DNA of 64,000 nucleotides from the human T2T-CHM13v2.0 reference genome, Homo sapiens: NCBI RefSeq assembly GCF_009914755.1, contig NC_060927.1, one strand, 5' to 3'. Below, piece by piece: positions 3,654 through 4,279 of the stretch (positions within the stretch are counted from its first letter, which is position 1; each line of letters opens with the position of its first letter). Made by a program: the position numbers and the translations under genes. The notes beneath the pieces were generated by a model. It had not been told where the DNA came from. It saw nothing but the letters and a program-made list of their open reading frames with translations, and searched no databases.

Positions 3654-3862
3654 CCTGCGCCCACTGTCTGGCACTCCCTAGTGAGATGAACCCGTTACCT
3701 CAGATGGAAATGCAGAAATCACCCGTCTTCTGAGTCGCTCACGCTGGGAGCTGTAGACCGGAGCTGTTCCTATTTGGCCATCTTGGCTCCTCAAATAAGT
3801 TGTCTGTTTCTTTGAAATCTCCCAAGGGGTTTGTGAAGGTACATTTCAGAAGATTTCGAAGT

Positions 3863-3946
3863 CCTGAGCGCTTAGCCGTGCAGGAACAATGGTGAGTCTT
3901 TAGCCCGATCGGGAGCGGCAATGGACGCCTCGCTGGATCAGGAGTG
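3863..3946 (-). mobile_element. Short HERV-W/LTR17-like LTR fragment
   Basis: Minus strand CTCCTGATCCAGCGAGGCGTCCATTGCCGCTCCCGATCGGGCTAAAGACTCACCATTGTTCCTGCACGGCTAAG resembles the HERV-W LTR U5 region as I recall it. Confidence 0.7.
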
Positions 3947-4279
3947 AATAATTTTTTTATTTAAAAAAATGTTTTAGACAAAGACAGTTCACTCCACTAA
4001 AGAGGAGTTTGGTACCAGCTACTAAGTAATTCTACCTAACCCCTTTCATTATTGATGTTCAGCCAGTGTGTTATCTGAGATTCTGTGCCAGCCACTAAGA
4101 TAATCCCCACCTATCCACTGCATTACTGATGCTCAGCTGCTGTGTTGATTGGCTTATTTACCAGTACTCCTTGCGGCACACCCTTTGCCTGGCCAGGGAG
4201 GCCATCCATACAACTTACACCCTGGGTGTGACCCAGAGGACACGGCTATGGTACTAGTACAAGCAATGGAAGCCATTAA

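What the first reader, a model, noticed from the sequence alone, without database searches (positions are those of the whole stretch)
3793..3970. CpG-rich LTR17-like fragment upstream of the L1: candidate LTR-driven 5' transduction
Seen on the minus strand, in order: TTTTTTT/AAATAAAAAAATTATTCA (L1-endonuclease-like site plus 18 bp, 3962-3945); about 85 bp of HERV-W-LTR-like sequence, with 8 CpGs between 3857 and 3932, that loses similarity near CAG|G; about 70 bp of unrecognised sequence holding a second EN-like site TTTC/AAAGAAACAGACAACTTATTT; then the L1 start. An isolated, co-oriented, little-decayed internal LTR piece fits poorly with a decayed solo LTR. Inference: the source L1 was transcribed from an upstream LTR promoter, possibly spliced to an acceptor about 70 bp before the L1, so 3793-3946 came from the donor locus and the true TSD is at 3945-3962.
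Basis: partly seen in the sequence, partly recalled or inferred. Interest (0 to 1): 0.7.

Follow-up and report, generated by a model that had tools for sequence, protein, structure and literature searches.

The report
Spliced X-chromosome leader on an L1
A jumping gene (L1) on human chromosome 3 carries a 152-base leader made of three pieces that match places spread over 132 kb of the X chromosome, likely because a leftover retroviral promoter transcribed and spliced into a parent L1 that is no longer at that X site; it is a new, well-mapped case of a rare known process.

Summary
Confirmed and extended. The target-site duplication (TSD) is 3945-3962. Its partner lies just past the L1 poly(A) (17/18 match), so the 152-nt leader (3944-3793) was inserted with the 6.0-kb L1. 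The leader maps to chrX, same strand and order. (1) 81 nt from U5 of a solo LTR17, chrX:27,914,593-673, ending CAG|GT. (2) A 60-nt exon, chrX:27,968,493-552, AG...GTAAG; it is the only other genomic hit. (3) 11 nt matching chrX:28,046,574-584, behind a polypyrimidine tract and AG, with an L1-endonuclease motif 16 nt before the junction. No L1 follows that third site in CHM13, so it looks like the empty site of a lost source L1. Introns would be 53.8 and 78.0 kb. Best reading (0.75): LTR-started transcript, cis-spliced twice into a source L1 that did not fix in this genome, 5'-truncated on insertion. LTR promoter use and the lost source are inferred. The class is known (Law & Burns 2026, 17 events; this locus was not found in their tables). 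The case matters because a source-less chimera points to cis-splicing into a lost allele rather than trans-splicing.

The parts
3945..3962 (-). 5' copy of the 18-bp target-site duplication, preceded by a T run (endonuclease-type TT/AAA site). Its last 2 bases (CA) also match the donor LTR, a 5'-junction microhomology. The 3' copy (17/18 identical) lies outside the window at -2272..-2255 (chr3:40,917,728-40,917,745).
3864..3944 (-). Leader piece 1 (81 nt): U5 positions 461-541 of the solo LTR17-type element chrX:27,914,133-27,914,896; ends at a GT donor (CAG|GTTCGT) on chrX
   Evidence: 77/81 identical to the chrX copy, best of 28 copies compared; shares 3 rare variants with it
3804..3863 (-). 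Leader piece 2 (60 nt): exon chrX:27,968,493-27,968,552 with a polypyrimidine tract + TAG acceptor and a GTAAGC donor; inferred intron 1 = 53,819 nt
   Evidence: 59/60 identical; only other hit in the genome, 2 of 2 candidates scored
3793..3803 (-). Leader piece 3 (11 nt): matches chrX:28,046,574-28,046,584, behind an AG acceptor; likely the last 11 nt of the lost source L1's 16-bp TSD; inferred intron 2 = 78,021 nt
1..3792 (-). In-window part of a full-length L1 of 6,024 nt that runs on to about window -2231, followed by an A-rich tail (about -2232..-2254) and the 3' TSD copy. ORF1 intact (338 aa, from nt 904); ORF2 broken into four open pieces. L1PA2 or late-L1PA3 type (recalled diagnostics, no library test).

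Best explanation
The chr3 L1 and its 152-nt leader sit inside one target-site duplication, the leader matches three chrX places in order with splice signals, and it likely comes from a transcript started in the chrX solo LTR17 and cis-spliced twice into a source L1 that likely once stood at chrX:28,046,584. Shown: the TSD, the donor LTR copy, exon 2 with AG/GT ends, and the third match with its acceptor and endonuclease motif and no L1 behind it. Inferred steps: (a) transcription began at the LTR's U3 promoter and read through R, where this copy's poly(A) signal is ATTAGA instead of ATTAAA; (b) a cryptic donor in U5 spliced to exon 2, and exon 2 spliced to an AG inside the source L1's 5' TSD; (c) that RNA was inserted at chr3 by target-primed reverse transcription, losing about 200 nt of the 5' end; (d) the source allele did not fix in this lineage, leaving an empty site in CHM13.
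For: TSD 17/18 with the rival excluded. Pieces 1 and 2 hit chrX in the same strand and order, with GT and AG exactly at the junctions. Donor LTR is the best of 28 copies (4 mismatches, next best 6) and shares variants seen in 3, 1 and 0 of the 27 others. Exon 2 has a single other hit. The third site was sought by a pattern chosen beforehand (A-rich TSD start + AG + 11-mer) and found 78 kb downstream on the same strand. It is the only exact 11-mer match in 88 kb scanned on both strands. Chance of AG + 11-mer within 78 kb on that strand is about 0.004, or 0.011 within 220 kb (156 forward hits genome-wide). It has 15/20 pyrimidines, no other AG in 58 nt, and TT/GAAA (TTTC/AA on the cut strand) 16 nt before the junction; only 128 and 265 of 5,752 AG sites in that region meet these two post hoc criteria. 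TTTC/AA is listed as an L1 EN site in PMC4859970 Table 1. Poly(A) hexamer is ATTAAA in 19 of 27 other copies and ATTAGA in none of the 22 read. Precedent: RAP1GDS1 exons spliced to an acceptor 15 bp upstream of an intronic L1PA2 (PMC13174262).
Against: The source L1 itself was not found: no L1 has this 5' flank exactly, none follows the chrX site, and no 3'-transduced sibling carrying the chrX downstream flank was found. The third match is only 11 nt (13 with AG). I tried three acceptor patterns and one search listed only 100 of 298 hits. The acceptor and EN criteria were set after seeing the site, and the EN motif is partly built into the pattern. The acceptor is AAG rather than the usual YAG, and the U5 donor (GTTCGT) is far from consensus. 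The transcription start is not preserved and no RNA data were available. The date of the ATTAGA change is unknown. The third site lies in a repeat, so similar words recur in the genome.
Confidence: 0.75

Rival explanations
1. The chrX spliced RNA had a third exon starting at chrX:28,046,574 with no L1 there; reverse transcriptase switched template (or the RNAs were ligated) from the 5' end of an unrelated full-length L1 RNA to nt 11 of that exon.
For: No L1 at the chrX site in CHM13. Template switching and RNA ligation are proposed routes for L1 chimeras (PMC13174262 Fig. 7 legend).
Against: It leaves the endonuclease motif 16 nt before the junction, a typical TSD length, as chance (base rate 265 of 5,752 AG sites). 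There is no microhomology at the 11-mer/L1 junction. It needs the switch to land exactly at the L1's full-length 5' end.
Confidence: 0.12
2. Same cis-splicing route, but transcription began upstream of the LTR, so the LTR supplied only a splice donor and not the promoter.
For: The leader starts 205 nt past the R start given for LTR17 (256, PMC5016936; leader start 461), so the start site is not recorded. The LTR sits inside another repeat (MER41-like from recall).
Against: Exon 1 is sense to the LTR and downstream of its TATA-like box (position 227). The two bases before the leader start are CA, not an AG acceptor, which fits 5' truncation.
Confidence: 0.07
3. Trans-splicing of chrX exons 1-2 onto an L1 pre-mRNA from another locus whose 5' flank supplied the 11 nt; the chrX third match is chance.
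For: Proposed for 15 of 17 source-less chimeras in PMC13174262. Four other L1 5' ends have a partly similar flank: chr9 at 3 mismatches in 28 nt; chr1, chr3 and chr7 at 2 mismatches with a gap. These four were not followed up.
Against: No exact flank exists, and near-matches are expected among thousands of L1 5' ends (5,552 candidates for the 5' UTR query). The one close relative whose alignment reached well into the 11-mer (chr15) is explained by its own different TSD. The exact, collinear, acceptor-bearing chrX match would have to be a coincidence of about 0.004 or less.
Confidence: 0.05
4. The LTR piece is an old decayed fragment that was on chr3 before the L1 arrived.
For: None found.
Against: The TSD encloses it, and it is joined to a unique chrX exon exactly at GT/AG sites.
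Confidence: 0.01

Closest known systems
Spliced mRNA/lncRNA-L1 5' transduction chimeras (Law & Burns 2026, PMC13174262; 17 events in Table S5, e.g. MAP3K13-L1PA5, FHIT-L1PA4)
   Same: Sense-oriented spliced exons fused to a full-length L1 inside one TSD at an EN site; long donor introns (their median 48 kb; here 53.8 and 78.0 kb); source L1 missing from the reference.
   Different: The first piece here comes from U5 of a solo HERV-W LTR with a cryptic donor, not from an annotated gene exon. The short linker maps to a candidate empty source site, where the paper favours trans-splicing for source-less cases. This locus was not found in the six readable supplementary files; mmc7.pdf could not be read.
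RAP1GDS1-L1PA2 promoter co-option (same paper, section 14)
   Same: Two upstream exons cis-spliced to a cryptic acceptor a few bases (15 there, 11 here) before an L1PA2-type element.
   Different: There the source is present, has a deleted promoter and made several offspring. Here the offspring's 5' UTR is full length (ORF1 at nt 904), the source is absent and one offspring was found.
HERV-W processed pseudogenes mobilised by L1 (Grandi et al. 2016, PMC5016936)
   Same: LTR17-derived RNA copied by L1 machinery; five related copies seen here (L006, L009, L019, L030, L031) start at LTR position 256-262, as that class does.
   Different: Those carry R-U5 plus internal proviral sequence and U3-R. 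This carries only 81 nt of U5 spliced to non-viral exons and is fused to an L1.
L1 5' transductions in general (Hancks & Kazazian 2016, PMC4859970; RISCI, PMC3024322)
   Same: Upstream-initiated transcript, 5' TSD displaced upstream of the L1.
   Different: Described as a handful of cases in the passages read; this one is multi-exon over 132 kb.

Membership tests
L1 5' transduction (spliced) | One TSD enclosing leader + L1 + poly(A) | tested here: met
   17/18, best of 607 control 18-mers
L1 5' transduction (spliced) | EN-type cleavage site at the insertion | tested here: met
   T run followed by AAAT at 3963/3962
L1 5' transduction (spliced) | Leader maps to a donor locus in sense orientation with GT/AG at the junctions | tested here: met
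   chrX pieces 1 and 2 with exact GT and AG; piece 3 behind AG
L1 5' transduction (spliced) | Source L1 directly downstream of the transduced sequence at the donor locus | tested here: not met
   No L1 follows chrX:28,046,584 in CHM13, and no young full-length + strand L1 in 27.966-28.054 Mb. Also unmet by 15 of 17 published events. This lowers 'proven cis transduction', not 'chimera of this class'.
L1 5' transduction (spliced) | Leader and L1 arrived together (both absent at the orthologous site in outgroups) | not testable with these tools
   No primate genomes are held; the search tool reports no relatives
L1 5' transduction (spliced) | Spliced precursor RNA observed | not testable with these tools
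   No human RNA data available
LTR17 / HERV-W solo LTR (donor) | TG...CA ends, about 780 nt, short TSD, no internal sequence | tested here: met
   764 nt, TG...CA, CCAG on both sides; 780-nt reference length from PMC5016936
LTR17 / HERV-W solo LTR (donor) | U3/R/U5 borders at about 256 and 326; related copies followed by a primer-binding site about 4 nt after the LTR | tested here: met
   Poly(A) hexamer at 310; five related copies begin at 256-262; L009, L012, L030 and L031 are followed by a TGG-starting PBS-like motif (paper passages)
LTR17 / HERV-W solo LTR (donor) | Best match to the LTR17 library model over sister LTR families | not testable with these tools
   No Dfam/RepBase library held; the family name rests on the indirect tests above and on recall
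L1PA2 / late L1PA3 | About 6.0 kb with the short 5' UTR and subfamily-diagnostic bases | tested here: inconclusive
   6,024 nt, ORF1 at nt 904; 96.8-97.0% to two relatives; diagnostic bases recalled, no library

The most novel reading that the evidence does not exclude
A HERV-W solo LTR with a disabled poly(A) signal acted as a long-range promoter that drove a now-lost L1 allele 132 kb away to retrotranspose in the hominid germ line. The short 'untemplated' linkers in source-less exon-L1 chimeras are generally TSD remnants that pinpoint lost source L1s, so many cases ascribed to trans-splicing are cis-splicing into vanished alleles.
Probability: 0.3. Interest if true: 0.75.

Novelty: new member of a known kind. 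Interest (0 to 1): 0.52.

Why it matters
L1 5' transductions are rare, and a 2026 survey could not find a source for 15 of 17 exon-L1 chimeras and leaned to trans-splicing. This case gives a concrete marker for the alternative: the last few linker bases map to an acceptor inside an endonuclease site downstream of the donor exons, i.e. a predicted empty site that can be checked in ape and pangenome assemblies. It would also be a fossil record of an X-linked LTR-started transcript spanning 132 kb in the germ line or early embryo, and of one transposon class supplying the promoter for another.

Tried and rejected
Rival TSD at 3793-3811: 7 mismatches at best. Source L1 with the same 5' flank: exact patterns found only the chr3 copy; mismatch searches gave 1 and 3 partial look-alikes, judged chance and not followed. 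Nearest relatives of the 5' UTR (40 of 5,552 candidates scored): none near chrX 28 Mb. The chr15 copy whose alignment entered the linker has its own different TSD. The L1 at chrX:27.980-27.983 Mb is 5'-truncated and inverted, and other L1 pieces in the 88 kb are truncated or old (71-93% identity), so none is the source. A YYNYAG-type acceptor for the 11-mer: 50 hits, none near the donor. 3'-transduced siblings: 2 hits at 3 mismatches, read as copies of the host repeat, not fetched. Siblings with the same leader or processed copies of the chrX RNA: none. CpG retention as a special feature: chrX lost 2 CpGs in the LTR piece, chr3 gained 1, and 1 in exon 2 cannot be polarised; too few to conclude. 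A leader-encoded peptide: one ATG, 17 codons, no support. One search cut the exons one base off and showed a spurious sixth mismatch; the corrected 81+60 split gives 5 of 141. Literature: no paper held all terms for LTR17+IL1RAPL1, LTR17+Xp21+transcript, LTR-driven+source L1 or the set; some searches gave listings, from which four papers were opened. The search tool cannot take the term with its prime sign, so coverage of that literature is incomplete. The scan's earlier findings could not be consulted.

Full report
Observation. On the minus strand the window reads: T run, 18-mer (3962-3945), 152 nt of non-L1 sequence (3944-3793), then an L1 from 3792. The L1 is 6,024 nt, with ORF1 intact (338 aa) and ORF2 broken into four open pieces. 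I fetched the flank before the window. Directly after the A-rich tail, at window -2272..-2255, lies a 17/18 match to the 18-mer. So leader and L1 lie inside one TSD. The TSD is A-rich, so its inner edge is uncertain by a few bases.

Donor pieces 1 and 2. Searching the genome with 3793-3970 (40 of 507 candidates scored) gave chrX:27,914,591-674 as the best non-self hit for the LTR part and chrX:27,968,491-552 for the unrecognised part, same strand and order. On chrX the first piece ends CAG|GTTCGT. The second is a 60-nt stretch behind a 16/20 pyrimidine tract and TAG, ending CAG|GTAAGC. Pieces 1+2 differ from chr3 at 5 of 141 bases (after correcting a one-base slip in my cut). Exon 2 has no other hit (2 of 2 candidates). 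Among 28 LTR copies compared, the chrX copy is closest (4 mismatches in 81, next best 6) and shares three variants found in only 3, 1 and 0 of the other 27. Those 27 are top hits, not the whole family.

The donor LTR. It is a 764-nt solo element, TG...CA, with CCAG on both sides; the leader covers positions 461-541. PMC5016936 (passages read) gives LTR17 as 780 nt with R-U5 at 256-780 and U3-R at 1-326, so the piece is from U5. Five related copies start at 256-262 and four copies are followed by a PBS-like motif, as HERV-W elements are. No repeat library was available, so the name LTR17 is supported only indirectly. The donor's poly(A) hexamer is ATTAGA; 19 of 27 other copies have ATTAAA, 3 have other variants and 5 were not read. 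This would favour read-through into U5, but when it changed is unknown. The leader starts with a 2-base overlap with the TSD and not at an AG, which fits 5' truncation about 200 nt short of the R start.

Piece 3. The last 11 nt were unexplained. No L1 in CHM13 has them as its exact 5' flank; four partial look-alikes were not followed. I reasoned that if the source L1 had been lost, its empty site would read A-rich TSD start + AG + 11-mer. A YYNYAG pattern gave 50 hits, none near the donor. The plain AG + 11-mer gave 298 hits, 100 listed. The AAAG pattern gave 57, one at chrX:28,046,570-584, + strand, 78 kb past exon 2. It is the only exact 11-mer match in 88 kb scanned on both strands. Using the broad count, chance is about 0.004 within 78 kb and 0.011 within 220 kb. 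The site has 15/20 pyrimidines, no other AG for 58 nt, and TT/GAAA 16 nt before the junction; in that region 128 and 265 of 5,752 AG sites meet these post hoc criteria, and 10 meet both. TTTC/AA with a GAAA-starting TSD appears among disease insertions in PMC4859970 Table 1 (passages). No L1 follows the site, and no 3'-transduced sibling was found. The site lies in a TA-flanked element with imperfect inverted ends (MER44-like from recall).

Mechanism. Shown: co-insertion inside one TSD, donor identity, two exact splice junctions on chrX, and a third collinear match with acceptor and EN features. Inferred: LTR promoter use, cis-splicing over 53.8 and 78.0 kb, a source L1 at chrX:28,046,584 that was lost or never fixed, and 5' truncation. 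Confidence about 0.75 for the whole chain and about 0.97 for 'spliced chrX leader inserted with the L1'. Rivals: template switch or ligation to a third exon (0.12), a start upstream of the LTR (0.07), trans-splicing (0.05), a pre-existing fragment (0.01). Age: about 3% pairwise difference from two relatives at 0.17% per Myr (rate from PMC13174262 methods) gives roughly 9 Myr; rough, and the subfamily call (L1PA2 or late L1PA3) is from recall.

Known work. PMC13174262 (abstract, sections 13 and 14, part 1 of section 34, passages and supplement searches) catalogues 17 exon-L1 5' transductions, 15 without an intronic source, and favours trans-splicing, while noting lost alleles as possible. In the Table S5 rows shown, the chr3 insertions are at 94.4 and 140.6 Mb and the chrX donor is at 33.7 Mb (30 of 33 'chr3' places shown); searches for this leader, TSD, LTR17 and likely hg38 coordinates found no row for this locus. 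One supplement (mmc7.pdf) was unreadable. PMC3024322 (passages) deals with L1HS in the passages read; its supplements were not opened. Searches returned no papers. Subscription papers were not searchable, so the locus may be described elsewhere.

Verdict. A real feature and a new member of a known, rare class, with two uncommon touches: a solo-LTR first exon and a mapped candidate empty source site. Interest 0.52.

Noticed in passing
window 45227-51373 (-): A second full-length L1, about 97% identical to this one in the body, with about 124 extra bases in its 5' UTR (long L1PA3-type UTR from recall).
   Followed up: no
window 36658-42755 (-): An older near-full-length L1, 88% identical in the body and 76% in the 5' UTR.
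   Followed up: no
window 2880-3792 and 6308-6722: The L1 lies antisense in an intron of predicted lncRNA LOC105377043; its antisense promoter would point towards the exon at 6308-6722 (annotation given plus general knowledge; untested).
   Followed up: no
L033 (chrX:27,914,133-27,914,896): The donor solo LTR is nested inside another LTR-like repeat (MER41-like from recall) and has an altered poly(A) hexamer.
   Followed up: partly
L035 (chrX:27,979,988-27,983,428): A 5'-truncated L1 with a 5' inversion (twin-priming structure), 96% identical to the chr3 L1, inside inferred intron 2.
   Followed up: partly
L047 (chrX:28,046,636-28,046,697): A tandem duplication of about 31 bases roughly 50 bases downstream of the candidate empty site.
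   Followed up: no
L006, L009, L019, L030, L031: LTR copies that begin at position 256-262, three of them (L009, L030, L031) followed by a PBS-like motif: likely HERV-W processed pseudogenes.
   Followed up: no
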